Below are positions 1 through 45,862 of a stretch of DNA of 46,781 nucleotides, piece after piece. Made by a program: the position numbers and the translations under genes. Position 1 is the stretch's first letter; every line of letters starts with the position of its first letter. The stretch is from an archaeon. Lineage in GTDB: Archaea; Iainarchaeota; Iainarchaeia; Iainarchaeales; Iainarchaeaceae. Under the pieces are notes generated by a model. The model saw only the letters and a program-made list of their open reading frames with translations, did not search any database and was not told the origin of the DNA. Location: NCBI GenBank assembly GCA_035655435.1, contig DASRUN010000017.1, positions 1-46,781 of the forward strand, given 5' to 3'.

Positions 1-161
1 ACATCGGTAACCAAGCAAACCATGGTTCCCTCAGTATAATCAAGTTCGACAAACATTCCCCTATGCATTGTGCCGGAGTAAACAACAAAATCCAAAGCGC
101 TGGGAGAAGGGCTTTCGTGGCCGCTGATAATTGTTCCGATGTCATCGTTTTTTTCTTTCAT
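1..161 (-). CDS. HerA-like (HAS-barrel / DUF87-type) ATPase, N-terminal fragment running off the window
   Basis: Absent from the ORF track because there is no stop in the window. The minus-strand ATG at 161 reads MKEKNDDIGTIISGHESPSPSALDFVVYSGTMHRGMFVELDYTEGTMVCLVTDV..., matching the IGxV...F.V....G.fV......G.v..V pattern of HerA N-terminal barrels. An ATGA start/stop overlap joins it to the upstream gene (158-161). nurA lies upstream on the same strand. Confidence 0.4.
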   Translation of the reverse strand, partial: MKEKNDDIGTIISGHESPSPSALDFVVYSGTMHRGMFVELDYTEGTMVCLVTD

Positions 162-586
162 TTTTTTCGTCTCCTAAAAATAGTTACGCTTGGAAATATC
201 TTTTTCCTTTCTTTTATTTTTTGATATGCAGGATAAACAGTTTCTGCAGAATACCAACCGGCAACACAACAAACAGATACCTTTTTTCCCTCGCCAATTT
301 TTTTATTGGCAATTGATGCTAATTTTTCTGCGAGACCCTGAGTTCTAAAAAGGCCTAATCGAAGAAAATAACTTTTAATGCCGACTTTTGGTCCGACAGA
401 AATAAAGGTTATGCCTCTTTTTTTCCCTTCCTGCAGAATCTGAGGCTCCGGGTGAAAATAAGAAACAACAACATTAACTCCTTTTTCTTGCAATCTATCC
501 AAATCAGCAAAAGTCACAGGAAATCCTGAAGTAAAAAAATCTTGTTCGTGTTCAATAATGTCGTAAGGATACCTTCTTTCAACCAT
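158..586 (-). CDS. PTP/dual-specificity-phosphatase-fold-like protein with a degenerate P-loop (CX5S instead of CX5R)
   Basis: This is ORF 158..661 trimmed to the internal Met (MVERRYPYD...), whose ATG overlaps the upstream stop as ATGGTTGA. The segment GEGKKVSVCCVAGWYSAETVYPAY resembles the VxVHCxAGxxRSxT phosphatase loop, but His is replaced by Cys and Arg by Tyr/Ser. Confidence 0.4.
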   Translation of the reverse strand: MVERRYPYDIIEHEQDFFTSGFPVTFADLDRLQEKGVNVVVSYFHPEPQILQEGKKRGITFISVGPKVGIKSYFLRLGLFRTQGLAEKLASIANKKIGEGKKVSVCCVAGWYSAETVYPAYQKIKERKKIFPSVTIFRRRKK

Positions 587-764
587 TCTTCGCACTCTCC
601 AAAAATTCTTTTCTAAATTTTTCAGTTCCTTCAATCGGAAAAACAATTGTGTTACACGCATTGCATTGTACTCGATTGTCTGCGGTTTCCATAAAATAAA
701 TCGGTTTGATGTTTGTTGAACCGCAACGCGGACAAAAAACCACTATTAGTTTGTTTTCCTGCAT
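579..764 (-). CDS. small zinc-ribbon protein (61 aa)
   Basis: This is ORF 579..803 trimmed to MQENKLIVVFCPRCGS...CNACN...PIEG. It has a CPxCG...CxxC ribbon. Its ATG (764-762) overlaps the stop of the upstream ribbon gene (TGATG). Confidence 0.5.
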   Translation of the reverse strand: MQENKLIVVFCPRCGSTNIKPIYFMETADNRVQCNACNTIVFPIEGTEKFRKEFLESAKNG

Positions 765-880
765 CAAAAAAAACCTTCCATAGGAGTTCCAATAAAACCG
801 CATTTTTTACATTTTTTCTGAGAACCTTTTAGCATCGGCTGATCCTCAAAACTTTTCGAACCGCACTTTGGGCAAATCAT
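764..880 (-). CDS. small zinc-ribbon protein (38 aa), paralogue of 579..764
   Basis: Below the ORF-track cutoff. The minus-strand product is MICPKCGSKSFEDQPMLKGSQKKCKKCGFIGTPMEGFF. An ATGA overlap joins it to the upstream AbrB-like gene stop (877-880). An alternative in-frame ATG lies at 901. Confidence 0.4.
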   Translation of the reverse strand: MICPKCGSKSFEDQPMLKGSQKKCKKCGFIGTPMEGFF

Positions 881-1032
881 AAGTTCACCTTCTTTTTCCA
901 TTCAACATATTTTGATTTTTTTATTAACAAAAAACCTTCCTGAGTTGGTTGTACAATAAGAATAGTTCCAGGTTTCAATTTTTCCTGTCGCCTTAACTCA
1001 GCAGGAAGTGTTATTCTTCCCCTTGTAGACAT
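877..1032 (-). CDS. AbrB/SpoVT (MazE-like) swapped-hairpin domain protein (51 aa)
   Basis: Below the ORF-track cutoff. The minus-strand product is MSTRGRITLPAELRRQEKLKPGTILIVQPTQEGFLLIKKSKYVEWKKKVNL. The GRITLPAELRR..L.PG segment is the classic AbrB-type DNA-binding motif. Confidence 0.5.
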   Translation of the reverse strand: MSTRGRITLPAELRRQEKLKPGTILIVQPTQEGFLLIKKSKYVEWKKKVNL

Positions 1033-1077
1033 TTTTACAACGTACATAGCACCAACTCTAATTTAGTAAGTAAAACC

Positions 1078-2169
1078 TCAAAAAGGCCTGTTATCTCGCC
1101 TCATCTTTAATTTAATCGAATTCCCCAATTTATCCATTATTTTATTGTAAACAATTTCTATTTCATCGGGCTTTAATTTCGCGCGCATATCAGCTTCAAT
1201 GAGAACGGAAGGATATGCATATTCTCTATGAAGAGAACTGAGTGCGAACGCAACAGAAGCAATTTCATCTGCTTTTTCGGAAACATTTCCTTTTGCAATA
1301 AACTCAACCCTCAAAGGACGATCGTATTCTGTGGGCTTGATGTACAAACCGAAAATATTTTCACTCCACTCGGGAGAAAAATCCTGGAGCACCGGATGCT
1401 GTTTTATATTTTTTGTATAATTGAAAACGCACGAACGTTCATTTACCCCAAGAAAATAATCCAAAAAAGCGGAATCGAACATTCCTTCTAATTTCTCCGG
1501 CTCGAGAATTGAATCTTTTGAAAGAATTTGCTCTTGTACAATTTGGCGAAAGCGCGAACCGCGAGAATCCTCAACAGTAGCAATCAAAGTACAATTATTT
1601 TTTTCCGCCAACTCGTAAAGGGATTCAAATTCTTTTATTATTCCAATATAATTATCCGTTAAAGCGGATTCCTTTCTTGGTTTGTCCTGAAACTGCGGAA
1701 CAATCGAACCGTCAATGAACAAATACTTTGGCTTGTGGAGAAGAATCAATTTTTTTGAAGCATTAACTTCCTCTTTCAAACGAAGCAAGGATTTTGATTG
1801 CTCGGCTTCATCTTCCTCCAACGCACTATTACTCAAACGCGGTTCGGGAAATCTGAAAAAGCCGGGATAATAATGTGCGGCTTTTACAATGCCGTTATCA
1901 TACTCAAAACAAACTCCTACAGCGCGAACAAGAACAATATCCAGCGAAGCCAATCGTTTTGCAACAAAACCTGAATCAACTCCCCCTATCAAACCATTCG
2001 GAACCCACTTTCTAACAGGAGAAACCAATTTAGGTTCTTTCAAACCAAAATCAGGGGAAAAAATTTTATTCTTTAAGGGAGAAAGCTTTTGTGAAACCAA
2101 TTGTTTCCTTTTTTCGGAAGAGTGGATTGTTTCCACGGCCGAATTAATCACAAAACCAATATTATTCAT
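1078..2169 (-). CDS. nurA: NurA-family 5'-3' nuclease
   Basis: 363 aa. It carries IGGVDSGFV and LFIDGSIVPQ acidic motifs and a C-terminal YAYPSVLIEADMRAK motif typical of NurA. A HerA-like gene lies downstream on the same strand. Confidence 0.65.
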   Translation of the reverse strand: MNNIGFVINSAVETIHSSEKRKQLVSQKLSPLKNKIFSPDFGLKEPKLVSPVRKWVPNGLIGGVDSGFVAKRLASLDIVLVRAVGVCFEYDNGIVKAAHYYPGFFRFPEPRLSNSALEEDEAEQSKSLLRLKEEVNASKKLILLHKPKYLFIDGSIVPQFQDKPRKESALTDNYIGIIKEFESLYELAEKNNCTLIATVEDSRGSRFRQIVQEQILSKDSILEPEKLEGMFDSAFLDYFLGVNERSCVFNYTKNIKQHPVLQDFSPEWSENIFGLYIKPTEYDRPLRVEFIAKGNVSEKADEIASVAFALSSLHREYAYPSVLIEADMRAKLKPDEIEIVYNKIMDKLGNSIKLKMRRDNRPF

Positions 2170-2190: not shown

Positions 2191-2224
2191 TTTTTAAATC
2201 AACTTAGGGTTCGGTGCCGGTGCG
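2191..2224 (-). promoter_or_regulatory. nurA promoter: GC box CGCACCGGCACCGA + 12-nt spacer + TATA box TTTAAAAA
   Basis: On the minus strand, positions 2224-2211 read CGCACCGGCACCGA, 2210-2199 read ACCCTAAGTTGA and 2198-2191 read TTTAAAAA. A further 21 nt leads to the nurA ATG at 2169. The radA and vapB promoters have the same architecture. Confidence 0.55.
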
Positions 2225-2315
2225 GAAAAACAAGAGAGTTTTACACATAACGAACTTCATGCAACCACGGATCAACAGCAAAATATAAATAGGCAAATGG
2301 ACTTATTTGTTCATT

Positions 2316-3302: not shown

Positions 3303-4007
3303 ATGACACAAAAACTCTACTTAGATGATTCGTATCTAAAAGAATGCGAAGCTACAATCACACACGCTGAAGGAAAATTTGTCGAACTTGACAAAACAAT
3401 TTTCTATCCACAAGGAGGAGGACAGCCAAGCGATATTGGAAAAATTTTTAGAGGAAAAGAAGAATTCAGAATTATTCACGGAAAAAATAACGGAGAAAAT
3501 GTTTCTTACGAAACAGACAAAGAAGGGCTCAAAGTAGGGGATAAAATCAAATGCATTATTGATTGGGGGCCGCGCTACAAATATATGAGAATGCATACAA
3601 GTGCGCACATAATGGCGCAGATTGTGAATAAGGAACTCGGCGCACTCATAACCGGAAACCAATTGGGATTAGAAGAAACAAGGATGGATTTCAGCGTTCC
3701 GGAATTTGACAAAGAACTATTGAAACGCTTTGAAGGAAAAGCAAACGAAATAATTGAGAAAAATTTGCCGATTTCAATTTCTTACGAAGAAAGAGAAAGC
3801 GCTTTGAAAAGACCGGAATTATTCAGATTGAAAGATGTTCTCCCGAAAAACATTCCAATTCTAAGAATTGTCGCAATAGGAAACTTTGATATTCAAGCGG
3901 ACGGCGGAACGCATGTAAAAACAACAAAAGAAATAGGGAAAATAAAAATCACGGATTTCAAAAACAAAGGAGCGGAAAACAGGAGAATTTACTGGACGCT
4001 TGAATAG
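3303..4007 (+). CDS. alaX: alanyl-tRNA editing protein AlaX (AlaX-M type)
   Basis: 234 aa. It carries the MHTSAHIM (HxxxH) and DGGTHV zinc/editing motifs of the AlaRS second additional domain. Confidence 0.85.
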   Translation: MTQKLYLDDSYLKECEATITHAEGKFVELDKTIFYPQGGGQPSDIGKIFRGKEEFRIIHGKNNGENVSYETDKEGLKVGDKIKCIIDWGPRYKYMRMHTSAHIMAQIVNKELGALITGNQLGLEETRMDFSVPEFDKELLKRFEGKANEIIEKNLPISISYEERESALKRPELFRLKDVLPKNIPILRIVAIGNFDIQADGGTHVKTTKEIGKIKITDFKNKGAENRRIYWTLE

Positions 4008-4008
4008 T

Positions 4009-4042
4009 CGCACCGGCAACGAACTCTCAAAATGTTTAAATA
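4009..4042 (+). promoter_or_regulatory. vapBC promoter: GC box CGCACCGGCAACGA + 12-nt spacer + TATA box TTTAAATA
   Basis: Positions 4009-4022 carry the box, which has one mismatch to the radA and nurA copies. The spacer ACTCTCAAAATG follows at 4023-4034 and the TATA box at 4035-4042. A further 22 nt leads to the vapB ATG at 4065. Confidence 0.55.
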
Positions 4043-4064: not shown

Positions 4065-4277
4065 ATGGCTATTGAGGTTACAATAAAAAAATGGGGAAAT
4101 TCCAAGGGAGCTATCTTCCCGAAAGAGTTTCTGGAAAAACAGGGCATAAAGGAAAATGACACGGTACTTTTAGAAGTGGTTAAGAAGATGAATCTTTCAA
4201 AAGTTTTCGGATCCGCCCCGAAAAGAACCATGTCGGGCCAAAAATTTAAGGACATGGTGAGAAAAGGATGGGACTGA
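4065..4277 (+). CDS. vapB: AbrB/MazE-family antitoxin (VapB-like)
   Basis: 70 aa. The sequence VTIKKWGNSKGAIFPKEFLEKQGIKENDTV is a SpoVT/AbrB motif. It overlaps the downstream PIN gene. Confidence 0.75.
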   Translation: MAIEVTIKKWGNSKGAIFPKEFLEKQGIKENDTVLLEVVKKMNLSKVFGSAPKRTMSGQKFKDMVRKGWD

Positions 4278-4639
4278 AAGCCTATTTCTTTGACACCTAC
4301 GCATTTTTTGAAATAATAAATGCGAACCCAAATTACTCTGCGCATCTGGAAACGGTGGGCACGACAACAAAACTAAACCTCATGGAACTGCATTACGGTC
4401 TCCTTAGAGAATACGGTAAAAAGTTTGCGGACGAAAAATATGATAATCTCGTTAAGAACACATTAGAGGTTGATGATAAAACCATAAAAGAAGCAAACGA
4501 ATTCCGACTAAAACACGCAAAAAAGAAACTCTCCTATATCGACTGTGTCGGATATGTATCCGCGAAAAGACACAACCTAATATTTCTTACCGGGGACAAG
4601 GAATTCAAAAACATGGAAAATGTTGAATTCGTAAAATAA
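4268..4639 (+). CDS. vapC: PIN-domain ribonuclease toxin (VapC-like)
   Basis: 123 aa. It has the N-terminal YFFDTYAFFE acidic Asp, then ...SYIDCVGY... and LTGDKEF, which together are the PIN acidic residues. It is paired with the upstream antitoxin. Confidence 0.75.
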   Translation: MGLKAYFFDTYAFFEIINANPNYSAHLETVGTTTKLNLMELHYGLLREYGKKFADEKYDNLVKNTLEVDDKTIKEANEFRLKHAKKKLSYIDCVGYVSAKRHNLIFLTGDKEFKNMENVEFVK

Positions 4640-9343: not shown

Positions 9344-10867
9344 ATGGCTAAGACATACATTAACACAGTGAAATATGAAATAAAACTGAACTTTGAAATA
9401 GACGGAATCGTGGACAAACCTGATATTATAGGCGCGATCTTCGGACAAAGCGAAGGACTTTTAGGAGACGAAATGGATCTCAAAGAACTTCAAAAAAACG
9501 GAAAAGTAGGGAGAATAGAAATAGAACACACAACAAGCATGGGAAGAACTAAAGGAACTGTAGTTGTTCCTAGTTCGATGGACATGGCTGAAACAAGTTT
9601 GCTCGCAGCAGGAATTGAAAGCGTTGATAAGGTTGGACCGTGCGAATCAAAATTCGAAATTGTGGATATTACAGACACGAGAACGGATAAAAGAGGGGAA
9701 ATAAAAACCAGGGCACAGGAATTGCTCAAAAGAATGATGGACAAATCCAAACCCGACACACAAATGCTGAGCGAGGAACTAAGAGAAAGCGTACGCGCAT
9801 CGGACATAATTGAATACGGCCCGGATAAACTTCCTGCCGGCCCCGGAATAGAAAACGACAAAGAAATAATCATTGTCGAAGGAAGAGCTGATGTTCTCAA
9901 CATGCTCAAAAATCAAATAAGAAATGTAGTTGGAATGAACGGATCAAATATTCCGCCAACAATAATAGAACTGAGCAGACACAAAGAAGTAACCGCATTT
10001 GTTGATGGGGACAGAGGCGGAATACTCAACGCAAGAAAACTCGCACAATTAGTAAACGTTGATTTCATTGCAAAAGCTCCGGACGGAAAAGAGGTCGAGG
10101 AATTAACCAGGAAAGAAATTCTCCAGGCACTCAAAAAGAAAGCGCCAATGGAAGAAGAATTCCAGGAGAGAAAACCGGGATTTGTAAAAGAAGCATATCC
10201 AAGGAGAATGGATTCAAGAGAAAATAATGAAAGAGCTTGGACTCCAAGACCACCAATGGATAGAGGTTATTCCAATAGGCCTCGCGAGAATGGGGAAGAC
10301 TCAAGAAATTATTCGAGAGTGCCAAGAGAAAGAAGCTTTTCGGGAAGACCTCAAAGAGAAGGATCATATTCCAGAGGACCTCCAAGAGAAGGCGGCTATC
10401 AAAGAGGCCCGCCTAGGGATAATGGATATTCACGCGGCCCTCCTAGAGATTCTAGAGGACCAAGAGGATTTTCAAGACCCCCTAGAGAAGGATCGTATTC
10501 TAGACCTGAATCAGAACCGCCTAGAGAAAGGCCAAGAGTGGAAATACCAAAGGAATACGTTCCAAGGGAAAGACCTGTTCTCACACCGGAAGAACAGCAA
10601 ACATACAAACCAATCCTTGAAGAACTTAAAGGAAAAATGAGCGCAAGGCTCCTTGATAGCAAAAATACTGTTGTCAAAGAAATTAAAGTAAAAGATATGG
10701 TTGATGAAATAGCCAAAAGCAAGAAAAAAATCAACGCAGTTGTATTCGACGGAGTAATAACAAAAAGACTTGTTGAAGCAGCGGAAAAAGCAGGCGTTGC
10801 ATATGTTATCGGCGCAAGAAAAGGAAAAATAGAGCCGAACGAAAAAGTGAAATCGGCCGCATTATAA
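9344..10867 (+). CDS. dnaG: archaeal DnaG primase/exosome-associated protein with a TOPRIM domain and a low-complexity insertion
   Basis: It has the archaeal DnaG N-terminus (YEIKLNFEIDGIVDKPDIIGAIFGQSEGLLG). Its TOPRIM motifs are IIIVEGRADVLNM and FVDGDRGG. At 507 aa it is long because of a roughly 125-aa R/P/G/S/Y-rich insertion. Confidence 0.85.
   Translation: MAKTYINTVKYEIKLNFEIDGIVDKPDIIGAIFGQSEGLLGDEMDLKELQKNGKVGRIEIEHTTSMGRTKGTVVVPSSMDMAETSLLAAGIESVDKVGPCESKFEIVDITDTRTDKRGEIKTRAQELLKRMMDKSKPDTQMLSEELRESVRASDIIEYGPDKLPAGPGIENDKEIIIVEGRADVLNMLKNQIRNVVGMNGSNIPPTIIELSRHKEVTAFVDGDRGGILNARKLAQLVNVDFIAKAPDGKEVEELTRKEILQALKKKAPMEEEFQERKPGFVKEAYPRRMDSRENNERAWTPRPPMDRGYSNRPRENGEDSRNYSRVPRERSFSGRPQREGSYSRGPPREGGYQRGPPRDNGYSRGPPRDSRGPRGFSRPPREGSYSRPESEPPRERPRVEIPKEYVPRERPVLTPEEQQTYKPILEELKGKMSARLLDSKNTVVKEIKVKDMVDEIAKSKKKINAVVFDGVITKRLVEAAEKAGVAYVIGARKGKIEPNEKVKSAAL
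10196..10579 (+). repeat. in-frame degenerate tandem repeats encoding the Arg/Pro/Gly/Ser/Tyr-rich linker of DnaG
   Basis: Amino acids ~285-412 read ...RPQREGSYSRGPPREGGYQRGPPRDNGYSRGPPRDSRGPRGFSRPPREGSYSRPESEPPRERPR.... The DNA shows about 33-nt periodicity (GGnCCnCCnAGAGAnGG...). Confidence 0.7.
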
Positions 10868-15981: not shown

Positions 15982-16084
15982 GCGAGAGTAGTATAGCGGT
16001 AGTACGCTGCCTTGCCACGGAAATTCTTTAGATTAAGTTTTCTGCAAAAAGGCTGCAGCCCGGGTTCGATTCCCGGCTCTCGCA
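15982..16084 (+). tRNA. tRNA-Gly (anticodon GCC) with a 32-nt canonical-position intron (16018-16049)
   Basis: The acceptor pairs GCGAGAG with CTCTCGC. The D arm is GTAT-AGCGGTA-GTAC. The anticodon stem pairs CTGCC with GGCTG (one U-U mismatch). The anticodon GCC sits at 16014-16016. The T arm is CCGGG-TTCGATT-CCCGG. The intron lies between positions 37 and 38 and shows a recognisable bulge-helix-bulge: central helix TTGC/GCAA with 3-nt bulges CAC and AAA. Confidence 0.8.
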
Positions 16085-26117: not shown

Positions 26118-26726
26118 TTAGTAACGCAAACCTAAAAGTGCGCGATCTTTTGAAAGAGCGGCTTTTATTCTCGAAATTCTACTTTTTACAGTGCCTATTG
26201 GAACTTTAAACTGAGAACTCAATTCCTTTTGTACATTTATAGGATCAATCAAACGCAGATCGAAATAAGCATGAGCAAAAGGAACAAGTTTCGGACTTAC
26301 TCTTTTCTCGATTGCCCTATTTAAAGTTTTCAAAAATTCATGAGTAATAAGCTGAGAGTCCGGCGCAGTTGCAGGAGGTTTTCTCGCAGAATCAAGTTTA
26401 AATGCATCAATATGTGGTTGCGTCCTCTTAGTACTACGAACAAAATTTATGAAGTTGTTTTGCCACATTAATGCAGTGCGCTTGATAATATCAGTTTTTG
26501 TTGCTCCGTTTGGAAATTCTTCACCCAACTTCTCAATTTCTCGGTTTAGTCGCTCTCTAAGCCCTTCCTCAATAACATCAACAGTAATGCCCAATTTTTT
26601 TGCTTCAGGGTGTTTAACAAAATAGGCAGCTAGACCGGGAATTCTTCCCATAGCATATTCGTATATTTCCCACTGATCTTTTAGATGAACCGGCTTTTTT
26701 CCTCGTTTTCTTACAGGTTTCAACAT
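26118..26726 (-). CDS. sigma-70/ECF-like protein (region 4 HTH, possible region 2)
   Basis: The C-terminal FDLRLIDPINVQKELSSQFKVPIGTVKSRISRIKAAL matches the sigma-70 region 4.2 pattern (R.v..L......s..EIA..l.i..GTVKSRl.RA...L). TALMWQNNFINFVRSTKR resembles the region 2.4 WL..IA.N...d..R motif. Confidence 0.5.
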   Translation of the reverse strand: MLKPVRKRGKKPVHLKDQWEIYEYAMGRIPGLAAYFVKHPEAKKLGITVDVIEEGLRERLNREIEKLGEEFPNGATKTDIIKRTALMWQNNFINFVRSTKRTQPHIDAFKLDSARKPPATAPDSQLITHEFLKTLNRAIEKRVSPKLVPFAHAYFDLRLIDPINVQKELSSQFKVPIGTVKSRISRIKAALSKDRALLGLRY

Positions 26727-26839: not shown

Positions 26840-29800
26840 ATGAGCTTGGGAGACAGCCTTAGAAAGGCAATGGAAAAACTCAGGAACAGTTCTTCCATTG
26901 ACAAGGAAACCGTAAAAGAGGCGGTAAAACAAATTCAAAGAGCACTCATTGCGGGAGACGTTGAAATAACTCTCGTAATGAAAATCAGCAAAGAAATAGA
27001 AGAAGAAGCATTCAAAGATTTGCCAAAAGGAATCAACAGAAAAGAACACATAATCAAAATCACTCATGATAAATTAGCCGGAATACTTGGAGGAAAAACC
27101 AAGGTTCCTGAAAAACCGGGAAAAATTTTATTAGTCGGATTATTCGGAAGCGGAAAATGTGTCCACCCTGAAACTATGATCCCAATGCCCGACGGGAAAA
27201 TAACAACAATAAAAGAAATTTACGATAATAATCCGGAAACAGCGTTTACACTTGAAGACGGATATGTAAAGGAACTCGCAAAGCCGTTAGAAGTATTTTC
27301 GTTGGATCCGGTAAGCATGAAAAATACTAAAGGGAAGGTCACGCACATATGGAAACTGAAAAAAGACAAGCCATTGTATAAAATAACTCTTGACAACGGA
27401 AATAACCACCAGGTTACTGTTACACAAGAACACCCTTTTTTTGTACTTGAACACGGAGAAATACACAAGACAAGAGCCGATGAAATTAAAATCGGACAAT
27501 ACATAGCCACACCGAAAAAACTACGAAATACGCATTGCCAAAATGATATCTCTGCCGAGGTCATGAGCATTCTTCTTCCGAATTGGATAATAGTCAACCA
27601 AAATCTTGCAAATCAAGCAAAGAAGATGCTTATTGAAAAATACGGGACTTTAAAAAATGCATTTTCATCGTTTGGAGAGAACTATTCATATATTACTTTT
27701 GTCGCGAACCTAAAAGCCGGAGAATTAAGAGTCAGTACACTAAGAAAACTTGAAAAACTTGAATTTAAATATGAATCTGAAGAGGAGATAACGGTAAAGC
27801 GTTCTGGGAGTGCGGCGAGAAAAGTAAAAATCCCAACACAAATAAACCCTGAGCTCGGGGAGTTTTTGGGTTATGTTTGCGCGGATGGACACATGAGAAA
27901 ACAATATCTAGAGATAGTTAACGAAGATGATGATATAATTAATAGAATAGAAACAATCGGAAAAAATATCTTCGGAATAAATCCAATTACAAAACCGGAC
28001 AACAGGACAGTTGCACTAAGAGATATCAGGTTTTGTTCAGTAATTTTAGCAGAGGTTTTCAACAGGCTTTTTTACATACCATATAACAAAAAAAGCGACA
28101 AAATCAGGGTTCCGAAACAGGTACTTCTTGCTGACGAGCCGACTAGAAAATCTTTCCTTCAGGCATATTTCGACTGTGACGGGTATACGAGAGATGGAAC
28201 GAGAAGTATAGAGTTTTCTACTGCAAGCAGATTCATGGGGGAAGAAATCAGAATAATGCTTTCTGCGTTTGGTTTTGTCCCGGGTTATAGCAGAAAAATT
28301 ATCAACAACAAGACACATTACCGTATTTTCGTAAAATCCAAGGACGTGGAAAAGTTTTACATTAAAATAGGCTCGCGAATAAGATTCAAACATGAAAGAT
28401 TGAGTAAAAGCATTGAAATTGGAAGAGGACAGACTTTTGGAAAGCAAGAAATGTTGCATGTGGGAAAAAAGCTAAAACATTATAGAGAATATATGGGGGC
28501 TACAATTGGAGAAATACAAAAACATGTTCCGTCTTATGGCACATACGAATCAGAAGGGTTGATTTCAAGAAATTCGCTCAGGAAATTCATTAAAGCCATT
28601 AAGACTACAAAAAACAAAAACAACTCGATTCTAAAAGCTACCTTAAACGGCGCCAACTTGAATGAAATCAATAAATTGGTCAATGAGCCACATACCTGGA
28701 CAAACGCGGTGGTTCATAGGCTGTGCCAACAGGACTACTTGGCGTATTCAAATAAGTATTTACAGATAACAGAAAAAGGAAGGAAACTGCTGGAAAAAAA
28801 TGCGGCGTTTGATGAATCCATAGTTCTGCAACTTGAAAAACTTGCAGAATCGGAAATATCCTGGATCAAAGTGAAAAAAATGGAGTTAGTAAACAATGCG
28901 GATTTTGTCTACGACCTTACAGTGGAAAATTATCATAATTTTGTTGCAAACCACACAATAGTGCACAACACCACAACAACAGGAAAACTTGCAAAATGGT
29001 ATTCAAAACGCGGACTCAAAGTAGGAGTAATCGCCGCAGATGTTTACAGACCGGCTGCGTATAAGCAATTGAAAACATTGGCTGAAAATGCAAAGGTCGA
29101 ATTCTATGGAAACGAAAAAGAAAAAAATTCTGTGAAAATAATTAACGAAGGATTAAAAAAACTGGAAAAAAGCGATCTAATTATTTGTGATTCAGCGGGA
29201 AGAAGCGCGCTGGATGAAGAACTTACAAAAGAAATTCGCGCAATAGACAAAGCATTCGGCGCAAAAGAAAAATGGTTAGTAATAGGAGCGGATGTAGGAC
29301 AAGTTGCAAAAAAACAAGCGAACGCATTCCACGAAAGCATTGGAGTTAATGGAGTAATAATAACAAAAATGGATGGATCAGCAAAAGGAGGAGGGGCATT
29401 AACGGCGTGCAACCAAACCGGGGCAAAAGTATACTTTATCGGAACAGGAGAAAAAATAGATGAAATACAGGAATTTGATGCAACCAGATATTTGAGCAGA
29501 GTAATGGGATATGGAGATCTTGAAGCCTTACTTGAAAAAGCAAAAGAAATTCAGGAAGAACAAGGATTCGATGCCGAAGAAATGATGAAAGGAGATTTTA
29601 ATTTAGAAGCATTTTATCAACAAATGAAAGCAACAAGAAAAATAGGAACAATGGACAAAGTAATGGACATGATGGGTTTGAAAACTCAAGTGCCAAAAGA
29701 ATTCGCGCAAATGGGAGAAGAGAAACTCAACAAATACGGTTATTTAATTGATTCAATGACAATGGAAGAAAAAATTGATCCGGAATTAATGAATTCAAGC

Positions 29801-29998
29801 AGAATAGCGAGAATAGCAAAGGGATCGGGAACAACACAGGAAGAAGTAAGGGAACTTTTGAAAAATTATAAAAAAATGAAAAAAATGTTCAAACAATTCA
29901 AAGGACTGGATGAAAAACAATTACAAGACGGAAAAGGAGTTAACATGCAAAAACTCCAGAAAATGTTTGCAAAGAAAAAAAAATTCAAAATAAGATGA
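26840..29998 (+). CDS. srp54: signal recognition particle protein SRP54, interrupted in-frame by an intein
   Basis: It has an N domain, a split P-loop (GLFGSGK / TTTTGKLA), DSAGR, TKMDGSAKGG and a Met-rich M domain (MDKVMDMMGLK). It is 1052 aa in total and 448 aa after removing the intein. Confidence 0.9.
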   Translation: MSLGDSLRKAMEKLRNSSSIDKETVKEAVKQIQRALIAGDVEITLVMKISKEIEEEAFKDLPKGINRKEHIIKITHDKLAGILGGKTKVPEKPGKILLVGLFGSGKCVHPETMIPMPDGKITTIKEIYDNNPETAFTLEDGYVKELAKPLEVFSLDPVSMKNTKGKVTHIWKLKKDKPLYKITLDNGNNHQVTVTQEHPFFVLEHGEIHKTRADEIKIGQYIATPKKLRNTHCQNDISAEVMSILLPNWIIVNQNLANQAKKMLIEKYGTLKNAFSSFGENYSYITFVANLKAGELRVSTLRKLEKLEFKYESEEEITVKRSGSAARKVKIPTQINPELGEFLGYVCADGHMRKQYLEIVNEDDDIINRIETIGKNIFGINPITKPDNRTVALRDIRFCSVILAEVFNRLFYIPYNKKSDKIRVPKQVLLADEPTRKSFLQAYFDCDGYTRDGTRSIEFSTASRFMGEEIRIMLSAFGFVPGYSRKIINNKTHYRIFVKSKDVEKFYIKIGSRIRFKHERLSKSIEIGRGQTFGKQEMLHVGKKLKHYREYMGATIGEIQKHVPSYGTYESEGLISRNSLRKFIKAIKTTKNKNNSILKATLNGANLNEINKLVNEPHTWTNAVVHRLCQQDYLAYSNKYLQITEKGRKLLEKNAAFDESIVLQLEKLAESEISWIKVKKMELVNNADFVYDLTVENYHNFVANHTIVHNTTTTGKLAKWYSKRGLKVGVIAADVYRPAAYKQLKTLAENAKVEFYGNEKEKNSVKIINEGLKKLEKSDLIICDSAGRSALDEELTKEIRAIDKAFGAKEKWLVIGADVGQVAKKQANAFHESIGVNGVIITKMDGSAKGGGALTACNQTGAKVYFIGTGEKIDEIQEFDATRYLSRVMGYGDLEALLEKAKEIQEEQGFDAEEMMKGDFNLEAFYQQMKATRKIGTMDKVMDMMGLKTQVPKEFAQMGEEKLNKYGYLIDSMTMEEKIDPELMNSSRIARIAKGSGTTQEEVRELLKNYKKMKKMFKQFKGLDEKQLQDGKGVNMQKLQKMFAKKKKFKIR
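27158..28969 (+). mobile_element. SRP54 intein (604 aa) with a LAGLIDADG homing-endonuclease domain, inserted in the Walker A P-loop
   Basis: It starts at Cys1 (CVHPETMIPMPDG). Block B is VTVTQEHPFF. The LAGLIDADG motifs are LGYVCADGHM and LQAYFDCDGYT. Blocks F and G are VYDLTVENYHNFVANHTIVHN, followed by Thr at +1. Confidence 0.85.
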
Positions 29999-34705: not shown

Positions 34706-34818
34706 TTAATAATAAAGTATTTTTTGTATTTAATCCTTGGTTTTCGCAAAAGAACAACTAAGTGGCATCGAACGAAGTGAAGATGGCACAGGTCTGACGG
34801 CGGACCTCTCCGCCGTTT

Positions 34819-34852
34819 CGCACCGGCACCGAGGTCTAAAATTATTTATAAA
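34819..34852 (+). promoter_or_regulatory. radA promoter: GC box CGCACCGGCACCGA + 12-nt spacer + TATA box TTTATAAA
   Basis: The box is at 34819-34832, the spacer GGTCTAAAATTA at 34833-34844 and the TATA box at 34845-34852. The radA ATG lies 94 nt further on (34947) and is preceded by an AGGAGGA SD-like element. Confidence 0.55.
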
Positions 34853-34946: not shown

Positions 34947-35894
34947 ATGGCTAAAAAAATAACAACAATAGAGGATTTGCCGGGCGTAGGACCGCAGGCA
35001 AGCGAAAAACTAATTAGCGCGGGATACAAAACCCTGGAAAATATTGCAGTAGCATCCCCAAAAGAACTAATTGAAATAGCGGGGTTAGGAGAAGGAACTG
35101 CGGATAAAGCAATTAAAGCGGCACGCGACGCCCTTGAAATGGGATATGAAACCGCGGCAGTTCTCGCGGAAAAAAGAAAACTTGTGGGAAAACTCACAAT
35201 GGGAAGCAAAGAAGTTGACACTCTTATTGGAGGGGGAATAGAAACCCAAAGCATTACAGAAATATACGGAAAATTCGCATCAGGAAAAACACAATGGTGC
35301 TTCCAAACCGCTGTAACAGTACAACTCCCAAAAGAACAAGGGGGTTTAGAAGGCGGCTGTCTCTATATTGATTCGGAAAACAGTTTCAGGCCGGAAAGGA
35401 TTTCGGCAATAGCACTAAACCACGGTTTAAACCCGGATGAAGTAATGCAAAACATTTACGTTGCAAGAGCATACAATTCAGATCATCAAATGCTACTTGT
35501 TGACAAGGCAGAAGAAATGGTGAAAGAAAAAAACATTAAATTAGTAATCGTTGATTCTTTGACATCCCAATTCAGATCGGAATTTGTCGGAAGAGGAACG
35601 CTTGCGGAAAGACAACAGAAACTCAACAAACACATGAGGGCGCTACAAAAACTGGCGGAAATGAACAACATAGTTGTATTGGTCACAAACCAAGTAATGG
35701 AAAGACCGGACATAATGTTCGGAGATCCAACAGCCCCTATTGGAGGAAATATTGTGGCACACGCATCCAAAACAAGACTCTACTTGAGGAAAAGCAAGGA
35801 AGATAAAAGAGTTGCAAAACTCGTTGATTCCCCATCACTTCCGGACGGAGAGGCAATTTATAGAGTAACAGAAAACGGAATAGAGGATATTTAA
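34947..35894 (+). CDS. radA: DNA repair and recombination protein RadA
   Basis: It has an N-terminal HhH ([20 protein letters not shown]), a Walker A (GKFASGKTQ) and a Walker B (LVIVDS). Its 315-aa length is archaeal RadA-sized. Confidence 0.95.
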
Positions 35895-42461: not shown

Positions 42462-43232
42462 ATGCAAGGACTTGAAATAAAAAACCTATACGCAAAAACC
42501 GAGGGAAAAGAAATACTCAAAGGAGTAAACCTCGCGGTCAAGCAAGGGGAAATACATGCGATCATGGGTCCTAACGGATCTGGAAAAAGCACGCTCAGCT
42601 CCGTAATAATGGGGTCGCCGAAATACGAAATAACAAATGGGGAAATAAAATTCGACGGAAAAAAAATTTCCGAACTAGAAGCCGATGAAAGGGCAAAATT
42701 AGGATTATTCTTATCATTCCAATACCCGTTTGAAATACAAGGATTAACCTTTTCAAAATTTTTGCACGCGGCATACAAAAACCATTATCCATTAAAACCG
42801 CTCAGCATTGTACAATTCAGAATGCTTCTCAAAGAACAGGGAAAAGAATTAGGAATGACGGATGATTTCATTGACAGAGAATTAAATGTCGGGTTTTCCG
42901 GTGGAGAAAAAAAACGCGCGGAAATACTCCAAATGAAAGTATTGAAACCGAAAATAGCAATACTTGATGAAACCGATTCCGGTCTTGACATTGATTCGTT
43001 GAAACTTGTTTCGGAAGCGGTTAATAGGATGCGCTCGAAAGAATTCGGAGCAATAGTAATAACACACTACAAAAGAATCCTGAATTATTTGAAACCGGAT
43101 TTTGTGCACATAATGAACGACGGAAAAATAATAAAAAGCGGCGGAGCGGAACTCGCAGACCAACTTGAAGAAAAAGGATACTCGGAAATAGTCAAAGAAT
43201 TCGGCGGAAACCTGCTTAGGGTGAAAGAATAA
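42462..43232 (+). CDS. sufC: Fe-S cluster assembly ATPase SufC
   Basis: MQGLEIKNLYA... The Walker A is GPNGSGKST. The ABC signature is FSGGEKKR. The Walker B is ILDETDSGLD. A TAATG overlap joins it to sufB. Confidence 0.95.
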   Translation: MQGLEIKNLYAKTEGKEILKGVNLAVKQGEIHAIMGPNGSGKSTLSSVIMGSPKYEITNGEIKFDGKKISELEADERAKLGLFLSFQYPFEIQGLTFSKFLHAAYKNHYPLKPLSIVQFRMLLKEQGKELGMTDDFIDRELNVGFSGGEKKRAEILQMKVLKPKIAILDETDSGLDIDSLKLVSEAVNRMRSKEFGAIVITHYKRILNYLKPDFVHIMNDGKIIKSGGAELADQLEEKGYSEIVKEFGGNLLRVKE

Positions 43233-45862
43233 TGGATCGGAAAAAAGAAAGGCAACTAACAGAAATAGATTACACCAAATACGATTTCAATTACAAGACT
43301 GATGATTACGAAATCAAATTTGACAAAGGAATAAACGAGGATGTTGTAAGAAGAATTTCAAAACTCAAAAATGAGCCGGAATGGATGCTGGACATAAGAC
43401 TCAAAGCATACAAAGCATTTGTGGAAAAAGAAATGCCAAAATGGGGCGCAGATCTAAGCGAAATACACTTTGATGACATAATCTATTACATGAAAGCTTC
43501 ACAGGACAACAAAAAAAGTTGGGATGATGTTCCAAAAGAAGTCAAGGATACTTTTGATAGATTAGGAATTCCTGAAGCGGAGAAAAAAATGTTAGCAGGA
43601 ATTGGTGCACAATATGATTCGGAAGTAATGTACCACAGTATTCGCGAAGACCTTGAAAAACAAGGAGTTGTTTTCCTTTCAATGGATGAAGGATTAAAAA
43701 AATATCCGGAAATTGTGAAAGAACATTTTACAAAAATAGTCCCTATTAACGACAACAAATTTGCATCATTGAATACAGCTGTTTGGAGCGGGGGATCGTT
43801 TGTATACATTCCAAAAAACATAAAAGTGGATATCCCACTACAGGCATATTTCAGAATCAATGCGGAAAGCTTTGGACAATTTGAAAGAACACTTATAATA
43901 GCGGATGAAGGAAGTCACGTACATTATGTTGAGGGATGTACAGCACCGAGATTCACAACACAATCTTTACATTCCGCGGTTGTTGAGGTAATAGCAAAAC
44001 CCAATGCGCACGTAAGATACACAACCATCCAAAATTGGGCAAACAACATTTACAACCTTGTAACGAAAAGGGCGTTTGCTTATAGAGACGCAACCGTAGA
44101 ATGGGTTGACGGAAATTTGGGCTGTCTGGCACAAGGCAGCACCGTAACAACGCCTGCGGGAATCAGGACTATCGAAACTCTTGATGTTGGCGATAAAGTG
44201 TTGTCTTTCGATGAACAACTTGGAAAATTGTGTTTCCATTCGGTAGTTGCCAAGCGTTTTTCCGGCTACCAAAAAATTCGCCAAGTTTCTGTCGGAGAGC
44301 GCAAGCTGCTTGCAACAGACAATCACCCGTTTTACTCTTATGCATACGACAAGAACAAGCCGCGGAAATTAGGTCGCTACAAGCTTGGCTATGTCAGAGC
44401 GGATCAGTTGACAAAAGCAATTATTCCACGCACTTCGATTGATTACGGGAAACCACACAAACTTGAAGCCCCGGAACTGACCACAAAGTTTTCATCCCAT
44501 AACCAATACAAGCATAATCTCACAGTGATACGCAAACGTTCACAAAAAATGACTCAAACGGAATATACAAACAATGAGATCATGTGGCTATTTGGGTATT
44601 GGATCGGAGACGGGAATATTGAAATGGAGCAGGCAAAAACCAATGGAGTAATACGCTTTGCAAAAGTGGGTTTTTCTACGCCGCGCGAAGATCGAGCCAG
44701 GGGCAAACTCATGAATACGATGGCTGCACTTATCGAAGTTGAACCGACAGAACGCCGGGACGGCGTCCACTTGGCATGGAACAGCAAAGAACTGGCAGAA
44801 TTCTTCCACATTAATGGGTTTAATGGGAAGGCTAAAGATAAACAGGTTCCGGAATGGGTGTGGTCCCTGCCGGAATCACAACGACTGGCTTTTGTTGCGG
44901 GTTATTTGGATGCGGATGGGAACATAAATGATCGTTATTTTTCTATAAAGTCTGTCAATCGCCCTTTGCTGGAAGACATTTCCTCTATCTTGGTAACATT
45001 GGGAATCACATCACGACTGCATACAGAATTCAGCGAACCGAAAACCGTGACTATAATGGGAGTGAAATGCACCGCACACGGGTCACATCGATTGGACTTT
45101 AATATTGATGAACGATTGCCGGAGTTCGTAAGCCCCGCACTTCAAGAAAAAGCGCTTAGTGCACCGGAACATATCTTTCAAACTAAGCGTTTGGTGGGGC
45201 GTTCCAACATCCACCTTGGGAAGAATGTGGAAATTGTTACCGTGAATGTTTCAGCACCATATTCAGAACCGGTTCCTACTTGGGACATTGAAGTTGAAGG
45301 CACCGGCAATTTTGTATCACAGGGTTTTATTGTCCACAACTCCAAAATCACAATGAAATATCCGGCAATCTATTTGATGGAAGAAGGCGCAAAAGGAGAG
45401 GTTTTGAGCATTGCATTGGCCGGAAAAGGACAACACCAGGATGCGGGCGCAAAAATAATACACCTTGCATCAAGAACAACAAGCACAATAACAAGCAAGA
45501 GCATTTCAAAGGATGGGGGAAGAAGCTCTTATAGAGGCCTTATAAAAGTTCCAAGAGGAGCGAAAAATGTCAGAAGCAGCGTAATGTGCGACGCACTAAT
45601 ACTTGATGAGAAAAGCAGGAGCGATACATATCCTTCCGTTGAAATAGACGAACCAACAGCAACAATAGCGCACGAAGCAAAAGTGGGAAAAATTGGAGAT
45701 GACCAAATATTTTATTTGATGTCAAAAGGACTGAGCCAGGCGGAAGCGCTAACACTCATAGTACTGGGATTCATACAACCTTTCACAAAAACACTTCCAT
45801 TAGAATTTTCGGTTGAATTAAACAGGCTAATTGAAATGGAAATGGAAAATTCTGTGGGGTGA
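43232..45862 (+). CDS. sufB: Fe-S cluster assembly protein SufB, interrupted in-frame by an intein
   Basis: Conserved SufB blocks are present (FGQFERTLIIADEGSHVHYVEGCTAP, ...VEWVDGNLG / SKITMKYPAIYL..., HEAKVGKIGDDQIFYLMSKG). It is 876 aa in total and 470 aa without the intein. Confidence 0.9.
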   Translation: MDRKKERQLTEIDYTKYDFNYKTDDYEIKFDKGINEDVVRRISKLKNEPEWMLDIRLKAYKAFVEKEMPKWGADLSEIHFDDIIYYMKASQDNKKSWDDVPKEVKDTFDRLGIPEAEKKMLAGIGAQYDSEVMYHSIREDLEKQGVVFLSMDEGLKKYPEIVKEHFTKIVPINDNKFASLNTAVWSGGSFVYIPKNIKVDIPLQAYFRINAESFGQFERTLIIADEGSHVHYVEGCTAPRFTTQSLHSAVVEVIAKPNAHVRYTTIQNWANNIYNLVTKRAFAYRDATVEWVDGNLGCLAQGSTVTTPAGIRTIETLDVGDKVLSFDEQLGKLCFHSVVAKRFSGYQKIRQVSVGERKLLATDNHPFYSYAYDKNKPRKLGRYKLGYVRADQLTKAIIPRTSIDYGKPHKLEAPELTTKFSSHNQYKHNLTVIRKRSQKMTQTEYTNNEIMWLFGYWIGDGNIEMEQAKTNGVIRFAKVGFSTPREDRARGKLMNTMAALIEVEPTERRDGVHLAWNSKELAEFFHINGFNGKAKDKQVPEWVWSLPESQRLAFVAGYLDADGNINDRYFSIKSVNRPLLEDISSILVTLGITSRLHTEFSEPKTVTIMGVKCTAHGSHRLDFNIDERLPEFVSPALQEKALSAPEHIFQTKRLVGRSNIHLGKNVEIVTVNVSAPYSEPVPTWDIEVEGTGNFVSQGFIVHNSKITMKYPAIYLMEEGAKGEVLSIALAGKGQHQDAGAKIIHLASRTTSTITSKSISKDGGRSSYRGLIKVPRGAKNVRSSVMCDALILDEKSRSDTYPSVEIDEPTATIAHEAKVGKIGDDQIFYLMSKGLSQAEALTLIVLGFIQPFTKTLPLEFSVELNRLIEMEMENSVG
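44123..45340 (+). mobile_element. SufB intein (406 aa) with a LAGLIDADG homing-endonuclease domain
   Basis: It starts at Cys1 (CLAQGSTVTTPAG). Block B is LLATDNHPFY. The LAGLIDADG motifs are LFGYWIGDGNI and VAGYLDADGNI. The terminus is TWDIEVEGTGNFVSQGFIVHN, followed by Ser at +1. Confidence 0.85.

What the first reader, a model, noticed from the sequence alone, without database searches (positions are those of the whole stretch)
34819..34852. Identical GC-rich box (tandem GCACCG hexamers) exactly 12 nt upstream of the TATA boxes of radA, nurA and vapBC: candidate undescribed repair/stress operator
In this strongly AT-rich window the 14-mer CGCACCGGCACCGA occurs at 34819-34832 (+). It is followed by a 12-nt spacer (GGTCTAAAATTA) and TTTATAAA (34845-34852) upstream of radA. 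The same 14-mer occurs on the minus strand at 2224-2211, again followed by a 12-nt spacer (ACCCTAAGTTGA) and TTTAAAAA (2198-2191), 21 nt before the nurA ATG. A one-mismatch copy, CGCACCGGCAACGA (4009-4022, +), is followed by a 12-nt spacer (ACTCTCAAAATG) and TTTAAATA (4035-4042), 22 nt before the vapB ATG. The box is two direct hexamers (GCACCG GCACCG). If transcription starts about 25 nt after the TATA box, the box lies at roughly -45 to -58. That is just upstream of the BRE, where archaeal activators and repressors bind. By eye I found no other full copy in the window; only partial GCACCGGC strings occur inside coding sequence near 37633 and 45298. I infer that one DNA-binding factor co-regulates the recombinase RadA, the NurA(-HerA-like) end-resection operon and a VapBC toxin-antitoxin pair. 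I know of no described archaeal operator with this sequence, but I cannot search to confirm that.
Basis: partly seen in the sequence, partly recalled or inferred. Interest (0 to 1): 0.8.

Follow-up and report, generated by a model that had tools for sequence, protein, structure and literature searches.

The report
DNA-repair promoter box in DPANN archaea
A GC-rich sequence of about 20 bases lies just upstream of the promoters of DNA-repair genes (radA, nurA-herA, hel308, uvrB and others) and of toxin-antitoxin and restriction genes, is conserved across a lineage of small uncultured archaea, and appears to mark an undescribed SOS-like co-regulated gene set whose regulator is unknown.

Summary
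CGCACCGGCA[C/A]CGA occurs three times in the window, each 12 nt before a TATA box, upstream of radA, nurA and vapBC (0.04 copies expected by chance). The window comes from a groundwater MAG of Iainarchaeota (Diapherotrites, DPANN).

The same box, in the same orientation, lies 12-16 nt upstream of a TATA box in many related MAGs of 32-53% GC whose flanking DNA is unrelated. It precedes:
- radA (5 genomes)
- nurA (9, including 4 of 4 orthologues fetched by protein identity alone) and herA
- hel308 (3), uvrB, a Hef-like helicase, and a 3'-5' exonuclease with a PIF1 helicase
- several toxin-antitoxin and restriction-modification cassettes
- a few unknown genes

In 203 kb fetched without reference to the box, the 10-nt core occurs 14 times (0.19 expected). 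All 14 copies are promoter-proximal.

The conserved unit is Y-CGCACCGGCA-N4-NNYCY (about 20 bp, asymmetric, abutting the BRE). It is not two GCACCG hexamers.

Best reading: this is the binding site of one lineage-specific transcription factor, more likely an activator than a repressor, that controls an SOS-like repair and defence regulon. The factor was not identified and induction by damage is untested. I found no description of this element in the literature.

The parts
34818..34837 (+). Box copy 1 (radA): t-CGCACCGGCACCGA-GGTCT. It comprises the 10-nt core CGCACCGGCA, a variable tetranucleotide and the conserved extension.
34845..34852 (+). TATA box TTTATAAA of the radA promoter. The 7 nt before it (AAAATTA) occupy the BRE position.
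   Evidence: column conservation
34947..35894 (+). radA (Rad51/RadA recombinase, 315 aa). The predicted leader is about 70 nt.
   Evidence: PF08423, E 8e-95. radA also follows the box in L052, L063, L088 and L130.
34767..34817 (+). A block of about 50 nt upstream of the radA box. It includes the hairpin GACGGCGGA-CCTC-TCCGCCGTT (34796-34817) and is duplicated upstream of a second box promoter next to orc1-B on another scaffold of the same MAG. Its role is unknown and it is not part of the general motif.
   Evidence: (fold z-score -0.98, not significant)
2206..2225 (-). Box copy 2 (nurA): c-CGCACCGGCACCGA-ACCCT
2191..2198 (-). TATA box TTTAAAAA of the nurA operon promoter, 21 nt before the ATG (a short or absent leader).
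1078..2169 (-). nurA (363 aa), the first gene of the operon.
   Evidence: PF09376. The box lies upstream of nurA in L045, L047, L053, L151, L152, L153 (degenerate) and L154.
1..1047 (-). The rest of the nurA operon inside the window: an AbrB/MazE-like 56-aa gene (1047-877), Zn-ribbon mini-ORFs, a 142-aa gene (586-158) and the first 161 nt of herA (DUF87/HAS-barrel).
   Evidence: In L152, herA has a box of its own.
4008..4027 (+). Box copy 3 (vapBC): t-CGCACCGGCAACGA-ACTCT. The 14-mer starts 2 nt after the alaX-like stop codon (TAG at 4005-4007).
4035..4042 (+). TATA box TTTAAATA of the vapBC promoter, 22 nt before the ATG.
4065..4639 (+). vapB (AbrB/MazE-type, 70 aa) and vapC (PIN, 123 aa).
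   Evidence: Other TA cassettes of different families follow the box in L007, L037, L151 and L152.

Best explanation
The box is the recognition site of a single sequence-specific transcription factor of Iainarchaeota (Diapherotrites, DPANN). It defines a lineage-wide regulon of DNA double-strand-break, fork and excision repair genes: radA, nurA-herA, hel308, hef, uvrB, and a 3'-5' exonuclease with a PIF1 helicase. The regulon also includes toxin-antitoxin, restriction-modification and mobile-element genes.

The site is asymmetric and about 20 bp long: Y-CGCACCGGCA-N4-NNYCY. It always has the same orientation, and its 3' end lies 6-11 nt (usually 7) from the TATA box, so it sits directly against the BRE.

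The mechanism I consider most likely is this. The factor binds there as an oriented unit and helps TFB/TBP assemble on the adjacent BRE/TATA, as an upstream activating sequence does. This switches the set on together, probably in response to DNA damage or replication stress, in the manner of an SOS-like response.

What is shown:
- the element exists;
- it is conserved against diverged flanks;
- it occurs only at promoters, in one orientation;
- its target set is functionally coherent.

What is inferred:
- that a protein binds it;
- that the effect is activation rather than repression;
- that the signal is DNA damage.

The factor itself was not identified.
For: 1. Non-random occurrence. There are 3 copies in the window against 0.04 expected.

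2. Restricted distribution. A scan of 185,579 species genomes for box plus TATA gave 14 hits clustered in 5 archaeal MAGs, one of them named Candidatus Iainarchaeum. The metagenome scan added 9 further distinct sites.

3. Control for chance hits. Among the 109 other hits, 104 lie in stop-free frames of at least 150 aa and only 4 show the NNYCY extension. Among the archaeal hits, 33 of 36 show it.

4. Positions not imposed by the search are conserved. +17 is C in 25 of 25 sites, +18 is T or C in 25 of 25, and +15 is C in 20 of 25. Positions -15 to -3 and the spacer carry about 0-0.3 bit.

5. Unbiased sampling. Four nurA orthologues (59-75% identity) were fetched by protein identity alone, and all four carry the box upstream. 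In 203 kb fetched without reference to the box, the 10-nt core occurs 14 times against 0.19 expected. All 14 copies sit upstream of a gene start outside called genes, in the same orientation, and are followed by a TATA-like element.

6. Targets identified by Pfam: RadA, NurA, HerA (HAS-barrel), Hel308 (archaeal helicase domain 4), UvrB, Hef-like helicase, RNase-H-like exonuclease with PIF1 helicase, Bro-N, PIN/AbrB/ParE-like TA pairs, N4/N6 MTase with MvaI/BcnI REase, and C5 MTase with Vsr.

7. Geometry. The site lies upstream of the BRE in a constant orientation. [quoted passage not shown] From general knowledge, the same is true of Ptr2, TFB-RF1, SurR and TrmBL1.

8. Precedent. Activator-type DNA-damage regulons that also include defence genes exist in bacteria (DdaA, PMC12392091).
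Against: - No binding protein was found and no expression data exist.
- The box promoters have near-consensus TATA boxes, which would also suit a repressor acting on strong promoters.
- Box-to-TATA spacing varies by up to 4-5 bp (with two outliers at 19-20), which is looser than a rigid protein-protein contact would suggest.
- Many targets are TA or RM cassettes and unknown small genes, so the signal could be something other than DNA damage, such as virus attack or general stress.
- Several repair or replication genes in the same loci lack the box: hjc, rad50, the RPA-like gene and the primase-like Toprim gene.
- The site lists from the collection scans were ascertained with an exact 14-mer plus a TATA box. 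They therefore cannot by themselves show promoter bias. That rests on the window and on the loci fetched by protein identity, which are centred on nurA or orc1-B, genes that themselves carry the box.
Confidence: 0.6

Rival explanations
1. Same regulon, opposite sign. The box is an operator for a damage-inactivated repressor, following LexA/DdrO-like logic. Bound next to the BRE, the repressor would prevent TFB from docking.
For: The box promoters have strong, near-consensus TATA boxes and A-rich BRE positions. The extended box ends only about 7 nt from the TATA box, so a bound protein could clash with TFB. SOS-type regulons in bacteria are classically repressor-controlled and also include TA and mobile-element genes.
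Against: From general knowledge, characterised archaeal repressors mostly bind over or downstream of the BRE/TATA or the start site, whereas sites upstream of the BRE go with activation (OxsR example). The strictly constant orientation of an asymmetric site relative to the TATA box is not required for steric repression. I did not look for a LexA-like or DdrO/IrrE-like gene, and none appeared in the loci examined.
Confidence: 0.25
2. The box is bound by an Orc1/Cdc6 paralogue acting as a damage-response regulator, as Orc1-2 does in Sulfolobales. The candidate is 'Orc1-B', which is about 31% identical to the hel308-adjacent Orc1-A.
For: A box promoter lies divergently upstream of orc1-B in 4 genomes (L110/L159, L155, L156 as a variant, L157). 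In L156 and L157 it is only 10-20 nt from the orc1-B TATA box. Orc1-B is conserved throughout the lineage. An asymmetric site of about 20 bp suits a monomeric Orc1-type footprint. The precedent is Orc1-2, which binds a 20-bp consensus containing ANTTTC and activates damage genes (PMC6061795).
Against: Both paralogues match the initiator class best (2qby_A and 2v1u_A, E 1e-53 to 1e-75). They match ORC2, which from memory I take to be the Orc1-2-type structure, far less well (1w5s, E 5e-14 and 6e-19). orc1-B lies next to an RFC-like clamp-loader gene, which is a replication context. At orc1-B the box points away from the gene. No ORB-like repeats resembling the box were found near either orc1 gene. 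Adjacency alone does not show binding.
Confidence: 0.1
3. The box is a promoter-class element read by an alternative basal factor, such as a TFB or TBP paralogue or a TFB3-like cofactor, rather than by a classical regulator.
For: The box has a fixed orientation and lies close to the BRE/TATA. Some archaea use TFB paralogues for stress regulons, and Sulfolobales use TFB3 in the damage response (PMC6061795).
Against: About 7 nt, filled by a normal-looking A-rich BRE, separate the box from the TATA box. As far as I know, basal factors do not read about 20 bp that far upstream. I did not survey TFB or TBP paralogues.
Confidence: 0.07
4. The box is part of a dispersed repeat or a promoter cassette spread by mobile elements such as TA and RM cassettes, with no common regulation. 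Alternatively, it is a chance repeat.
For: Several TA promoters share longer similarity (CCCCTTGAAAGCCTATTTAAATG in L151 and L152). The radA promoter block is duplicated next to orc1-B. Different TA cassettes carrying boxes occupy the same spot after alaX.
Against: At core genes such as radA, nurA and hel308, only the box and the TATA box are conserved among orthologous promoters of genomes with 32-53% GC. No terminal inverted repeats or longer shared flanks were seen. Chance is excluded.
Confidence: 0.03

Closest known systems
Sulfolobales DNA-damage-responsive element (5'-ANTTTC-3' within a 20-bp consensus), bound by Orc1-2 (PMC6061795; PMC5817253)
   Same: It is an archaeal, promoter-proximal, asymmetric element of about 20 bp shared by a damage-related gene set. 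It acts positively, and there is a possible link to an Orc1/Cdc6 gene.
   Different: The sequence is unrelated. The Sulfolobales regulon contains ups, ced and tfb3 rather than the canonical repair genes (radA is not induced; PMC2246294), whereas here the canonical recombination and excision genes carry the box. The local Orc1 paralogues are not of the Orc1-2 type. The lineage is different (DPANN).
Bacterial SOS box / LexA regulon
   Same: The regulon content is similar: the recombinase, uvrB, helicases and nucleases, together with TA modules and mobile-element genes.
   Different: The SOS box is a palindrome that overlaps a sigma-70 promoter and is bound by a self-cleaving repressor dimer. This box is non-palindromic and lies upstream of an archaeal BRE/TATA in a fixed orientation.
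WYL-domain activators of bacterial damage regulons (PafBC, DriD, DdaA; PMC6789036, PMC12340889, PMC12392091)
   Same: They follow activator logic. The motif lies just upstream of the core promoter, and the DdaA regulon joins repair genes to RM and CRISPR defence genes.
   Different: They act on bacterial promoters, and no WYL protein was looked for or seen here. The motif sequences are unrelated.
Archaeal upstream activating sites, for example OxsR's CG-rich motif (PMC9426492), and from general knowledge Ptr2, TFB-RF1, GvpE UAS and Sta1 at a radA paralogue (PMC2175319)
   Same: It is a GC-rich or repeat-containing site directly upstream of the BRE/TATA. It is orientation- and position-dependent and lies in front of stress or repair genes.
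   Different: The sequence differs (OxsR: the semipalindromic CGGnCGnGCG). Those sites control other gene sets in other lineages. The binding factor here is unknown.

Membership tests
LexA SOS box | Palindromic operator (CTGT-N8-ACAG or a lineage variant) overlapping the core promoter | tested here: not met
   The box is asymmetric. Only the central CCGG is self-complementary (read directly from the sequence; logo). It lies upstream of the BRE/TATA and does not overlap it.
LexA SOS box | LexA (S24 peptidase with wHTH) encoded in the genome | not tested
   Whole genomes were not available. None was seen in the annotated loci.
Sulfolobales Orc1-2 damage element | Motif 5'-ANTTTC-3' in the promoter | tested here: not met
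   The conserved box has no ANTTTC. The motif definition is from PMC6061795.
Sulfolobales Orc1-2 damage element | Regulator of the Orc1-2 clade | tested here: not met
   Both local Orc1/Cdc6 paralogues score far better against the Orc1-1-type structures 2qby_A and 2v1u_A than against ORC2 (1w5s). This is a sequence comparison only. No phylogeny was made.
Archaeal upstream activating site (UAS) | Site upstream of and adjacent to the BRE/TATA, in a fixed orientation and at a near-fixed distance | tested here: met
   About 40 sites share the same orientation. The 14-mer ends 12-16 nt before the TATA box (mode 12), leaving about 7 nt for the BRE after the 5-nt extension.
Archaeal upstream activating site (UAS) | A bound factor increases transcription | not testable with these tools
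   This needs EMSA or footprinting and in vitro transcription or reporter assays.
Regulon (shared TF site) | The site is conserved at orthologous promoters while the flanks diverge | tested here: met
   This holds for radA in 5 genomes, nurA in 9 and hel308 in 3. Flanks carry about 0-0.3 bit, whereas non-imposed box positions carry 1-2.25 bits.
Regulon (shared TF site) | Over-representation and promoter bias in sequence not selected for the site | tested here: met
   There are 14 core copies against 0.19 expected in 203 kb, and all are promoter-proximal. Caveat: the loci are centred on nurA or orc1-B.
Antitoxin autoregulatory operator | An operator specific to one TA family, usually palindromic, bound by its own antitoxin | tested here: not met
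   The same box precedes TA pairs of different families (AbrB-PIN, a PIN with an unclassified small upstream ORF, AbrB-SocA/DUF488, ParE-like, DUF5678-Asp protease) as well as non-TA genes.
MITE / dispersed repeat | Terminal inverted repeats, target-site duplication, similarity extending across a unit of 50 bp or more | tested here: not met
   Similarity is limited to the box of about 20 bp plus the TATA box. The only longer shared block is the duplication between the radA and orc1-B promoters.
Known RNA family overlapping the box | Match to an Rfam covariance model | tested here: not met
   There was no match at E up to 10 around the radA copy. The window has only 3 tRNAs.

The most novel reading that the evidence does not exclude
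Iainarchaeota (DPANN) have a true SOS-like transcriptional response. In this reading, one still unidentified, lineage-specific activator bound next to the BRE switches on the canonical recombination, end-resection, fork-repair and excision genes after DNA damage, together with TA, RM and mobile-element genes. This would be the first archaeal regulon of that kind. A bolder version, also not excluded, is that the factor is the second Orc1/Cdc6 paralogue (Orc1-B), recruited independently of the Sulfolobales Orc1-2.
Probability: 0.45. Interest if true: 0.8.

Novelty: new variant of a known kind. Interest (0 to 1): 0.7.

Why it matters
Whether archaea have a coordinated transcriptional response that induces their DNA-repair genes has long been an open question. 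In the best-studied case (Sulfolobales), the canonical repair genes are not induced, and the known regulon serves DNA transfer and cell-cycle arrest.

Here a single conserved promoter element links radA, nurA-herA, hel308, hef, uvrB and nucleases across a whole DPANN lineage. That gives three things:
- a concrete, testable regulon;
- a bait sequence for finding the regulator;
- a list of unknown genes likely to act in repair or defence (a Cys-rich protein of about 500 aa, an acylphosphatase-like protein, a 95-aa protein upstream of hel308, and a short transcript next to orc1-B).

It also suggests that TA and RM cassettes in these reduced genomes are wired into the same signal, as in bacterial SOS and DdaA networks.

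Tried and rejected
- **RNA gene at the radA copy.** Rfam gave no match. The upstream hairpin is not significantly stable (z -0.98).
- **Tandem GCACCG hexamers as the functional repeat.** Rejected. The second hexamer varies in relatives.
- **G-quadruplex on the bottom strand.** Considered from the sequence and rejected, because the common C-to-A variant at position 11 breaks one G-run.
- **AbrB/VapB-type antitoxin as the regulator.** An AbrB-like gene lies inside the nurA-herA operon in three genomes. In the others that position holds only Zn-ribbon mini-ORFs or an unrelated small ORF, and the box precedes TA pairs of unrelated families. Dropped.
- **Orc1/Cdc6 as the regulator.** Kept only as a low-probability rival.
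- **Viruses carrying the box.** The exact pattern gave 0 hits. The relaxed pattern gave 11 hits that are in coding sequence, are terminator hairpins, or have no gene downstream.
- **The 95-aa protein upstream of hel308.** By eye it looked PC4-like, but it has no Pfam or PDB sequence match, so I make no claim.
- **The 202-aa window protein with a sigma-region-4-like C-terminus.** The similarity is only E 0.13, and nothing links it to the box.
- **Literature.** The 12-mer appears only in unrelated papers. Searches on archaeal or DPANN repair regulons found no description.

Full report
**Observation.** CGCACCGGCACCGA lies at 34819-34832 (+) and at 2224-2211 (-). The one-mismatch copy CGCACCGGCAACGA lies at 4009-4022 (+). 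Each is followed by 12 nt and a TTTAWAWA box. Allowing up to two mismatches, these are the only matches in the window, against a mean of 0.04 in shuffles. The downstream genes are RadA, NurA and an AbrB/MazE-PIN (VapBC) pair. The nurA operon runs on through small ORFs into herA, whose first 161 nt are at the window's left edge. The window has 37.9% GC.

**Origin.** The RadA protein is encoded on a 133-kb scaffold of a Rifle groundwater assembly (ANAN16-1_SAMN03842431). The NurA homologues that carry a source name are labelled either generic 'archaeon' MAGs or 'Candidatus Diapherotrites archaeon'. One genome that carries the box is named Candidatus Iainarchaeum. The lineage is Iainarchaeota, in the DPANN group (kingdom Nanobdellati in the current NCBI taxonomy).

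**Distribution.** I scanned one genome for each of 185,579 species for CGCACCGGCAMCGA-N10-14-TTTAWA. This gave 64 loci. Fourteen hits fall in only five archaeal MAGs, with 1-4 hits each. The rest are scattered bacteria. The same kind of scan of JGI metagenomes added nine further distinct archaeal-type sites, plus re-finds of the window and of the MAGs.

As a control, I examined the 109 non-Iainarchaeal hits. Of these, 104 lie inside stop-free frames of at least 150 aa, and only 4 have the downstream NNYCY. Among the archaeal hits, 33 of 36 have it.

**What is conserved.** I aligned 25 distinct sites on the box. The positions the search did not impose are strongly conserved:
- +14: A in 19 of 25
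- +15: C in 20 of 25
- +16: C or T in 24 of 25
- +17: C in 25 of 25
- +18: T or C in 25 of 25
- -1: C or T in 22 of 25

Positions -15 to -3 and the spacer carry about 0-0.3 bit. The TATA box then follows. The genomes range from 32 to 53% GC and share nothing else in these regions. Selection therefore acts on the box itself.

**Unbiased test.** I fetched four NurA orthologues (75, 72, 64 and 59% identity) by protein identity alone. All four have the box upstream of nurA:
- CGCACCGGCAATCC-ACCCT
- CGCACCGGCAATCT-CCTCT
- a decayed TCCAATGGCAATCA-ACCTT, in a genome of 32% GC
- CGCACCGGCAACTT-ACTCC

The constant part is therefore the 10-mer CGCACCGGCA plus the YCY eight bases on. The second 'GCACCG' hexamer of the window's copies is not conserved. 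This rejects the tandem-hexamer reading.

I then counted the 10-mer in 203 kb collected without reference to the box (the window plus eight loci fetched through NurA or Orc1-B). It occurs 14 times against 0.19 expected. All 14 copies sit upstream of a gene start and outside called genes, in the same orientation, and all are followed by NNYCY and a TATA-like element. One caveat applies: these loci are centred on genes that themselves have the box. Box-to-TATA spacing is 12-16 nt (mode 12), with two outliers at 19-20.

**Targets** (Pfam; orthology by clustering):
- radA: window, L052, L063, L088, L130
- nurA: window, L045, L047, L053, L151-L154
- herA with a box of its own: L152
- hel308: L008, L019, L137. 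In L137 it is preceded by a conserved 95-aa gene. In L008 that 95-aa gene has its own variant box.
- uvrB: L068
- a Hef-like helicase: L075
- an RNase-H-like 3'-5' exonuclease: L038 (followed there by a PIF1 helicase) and L122
- a Bro-N protein: L145
- an acylphosphatase-like protein: L130, and by visible N-terminal similarity only L022 and L062
- a Cys-rich protein of about 500 aa with no Pfam or PDB match: L151, L153, L154
- TA cassettes of several unrelated families: window, L007, L037, L151, L152
- two RM systems: L086 and L152
- a LAGLIDADG protein: L066
- with a variant box, a protein in L130 that looks TnpB-like by eye (no family search was run)

A fourth copy in the window's own MAG lies on scaffold_303. 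It points away from the second Orc1/Cdc6 gene (orc1-B) and drives a short conserved transcript. Several repair or replication genes in the same loci lack the box, including hjc, rad50, the RPA-like gene and the Toprim gene. The box is therefore not a general promoter feature.

**Mechanism.** The extended element ends about 7 nt from the TATA box, which places it directly against the BRE. It is asymmetric and always points the same way. In archaea this geometry goes with activators that help TFB/TBP bind. [quoted passage not shown] From general knowledge, the same holds for Ptr2, TFB-RF1, and SurR/TrmBL1 when bound upstream. Characterised repressors, by contrast, mostly bind over or after the TATA box.

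I therefore favour an activator site. I read the gene set as an SOS-like response that also takes in TA and RM genes, as in the bacterial DdaA network (PMC12392091). A repressor remains a serious alternative, because the promoters are strong and the spacing is somewhat loose. That a protein binds, the sign of the effect, and the inducing signal are all inferences.

**Who binds.** This was not resolved. The Orc1/Cdc6 idea has a precedent in Orc1-2 of Sulfolobales (PMC6061795). It gains some support from the conserved position of a box next to orc1-B in four genomes. Against it:
- both paralogues resemble initiator-type Orc1-1 rather than ORC2;
- the box points away from orc1-B;
- no ORB-like repeats were found.

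AbrB-type antitoxins were rejected. No virus carries the box.

**Novelty.** The sequence does not appear in any relevant paper of the searched library. Searches on archaeal or DPANN repair regulons found only the Sulfolobales system and bacterial analogues. The kind of thing, a regulon operator or UAS, is known. This element, its lineage and its content of canonical repair genes appear to be undescribed.

Noticed in passing
window 34767-34817; L110 5850-5899; L159 about 9861-9910 (-): A block of about 50 nt lies upstream of the radA box and includes a 9-bp-stem hairpin (34796-34817). It is duplicated, together with the box and the first bases after the TATA box, next to orc1-B on scaffold_303 of the same MAG. 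This looks like a promoter duplication. The block's role is unknown.
   Followed up: partly
L110 5940-6020 (+); L155 about 9680-9775 (-); L156 about 9800-9900 (-): A box promoter pointing away from orc1-B drives a short conserved transcript (GGCUCAUUGG ... CCCUUAACUCCCAA) with a 10-bp stem. The fold z-score is -2.25, there were no compensatory changes in 3 sequences, and there is no Rfam match. It could be a box-controlled small RNA or a leader.
   Followed up: partly
L151 11473-12969; L153 7058-8542 (-); L154 18015-19541: A conserved Cys-rich protein of about 500 aa (NCxCC motif) has no Pfam or PDB sequence match. It lies near rpb6, S17e and rad50 and follows a box in three genomes. It is a candidate unknown repair protein.
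   Followed up: partly
L137 7998-8282; L008 1301-1591: A conserved gene of about 95 aa (KFSAGxIQVxVW...) lies upstream of hel308 and follows a box in both genomes. By eye it resembles small ssDNA-binding (PC4-like) proteins, but neither Pfam nor a PDB sequence search supports that.
   Followed up: partly
window 26118-26726 (-): A 202-aa protein has a C-terminus weakly resembling ECF sigma-factor region 4 (E 0.13, not significant). It occupies the spot where relatives (L130, L022, L062) have a box-driven acylphosphatase-like gene.
   Followed up: partly
window 26840-29998 and 43232-45862; L008 5088-7424: Inteins with LAGLIDADG domains interrupt SRP54 and SufB in the window. In a relative, one interrupts the Walker A region of Orc1-A.
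   Followed up: no
window 2740-3167 (-) and 4065-4639 (+); L151 1500-2340; L152 5100-7100: The stretch next to the alaX-like gene is a hot spot for TA cassettes of different families (HicAB and VapBC in the window, ParE-like and others in relatives). Several of them have a box promoter of their own.
   Followed up: partly
window 600-1050 (-); L151 7397-7585; L153 11110-11223; L154 11221-11457: Small Zn-ribbon ORFs (CPxCGS...CxxC) lie between nurA and herA in four of the seven operons examined (window, L151, L153, L154). An AbrB-like gene at that position is found in only three genomes.
   Followed up: partly
window 15982-16084 (+): Rfam calls a third tRNA of 103 nt (52 bits) that ARAGORN did not report. 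It is probably an intron-containing tRNA.
   Followed up: no
L130 10706-10719 (+): A one-mismatch box (CGCACCGGCAACCA) with an unusual 19-nt spacing precedes a 403-aa ORF that looks TnpB/IS605-OrfB-like by eye. No family search was run. This is a possible case of a mobile element using the host signal, or it may be chance.
   Followed up: no
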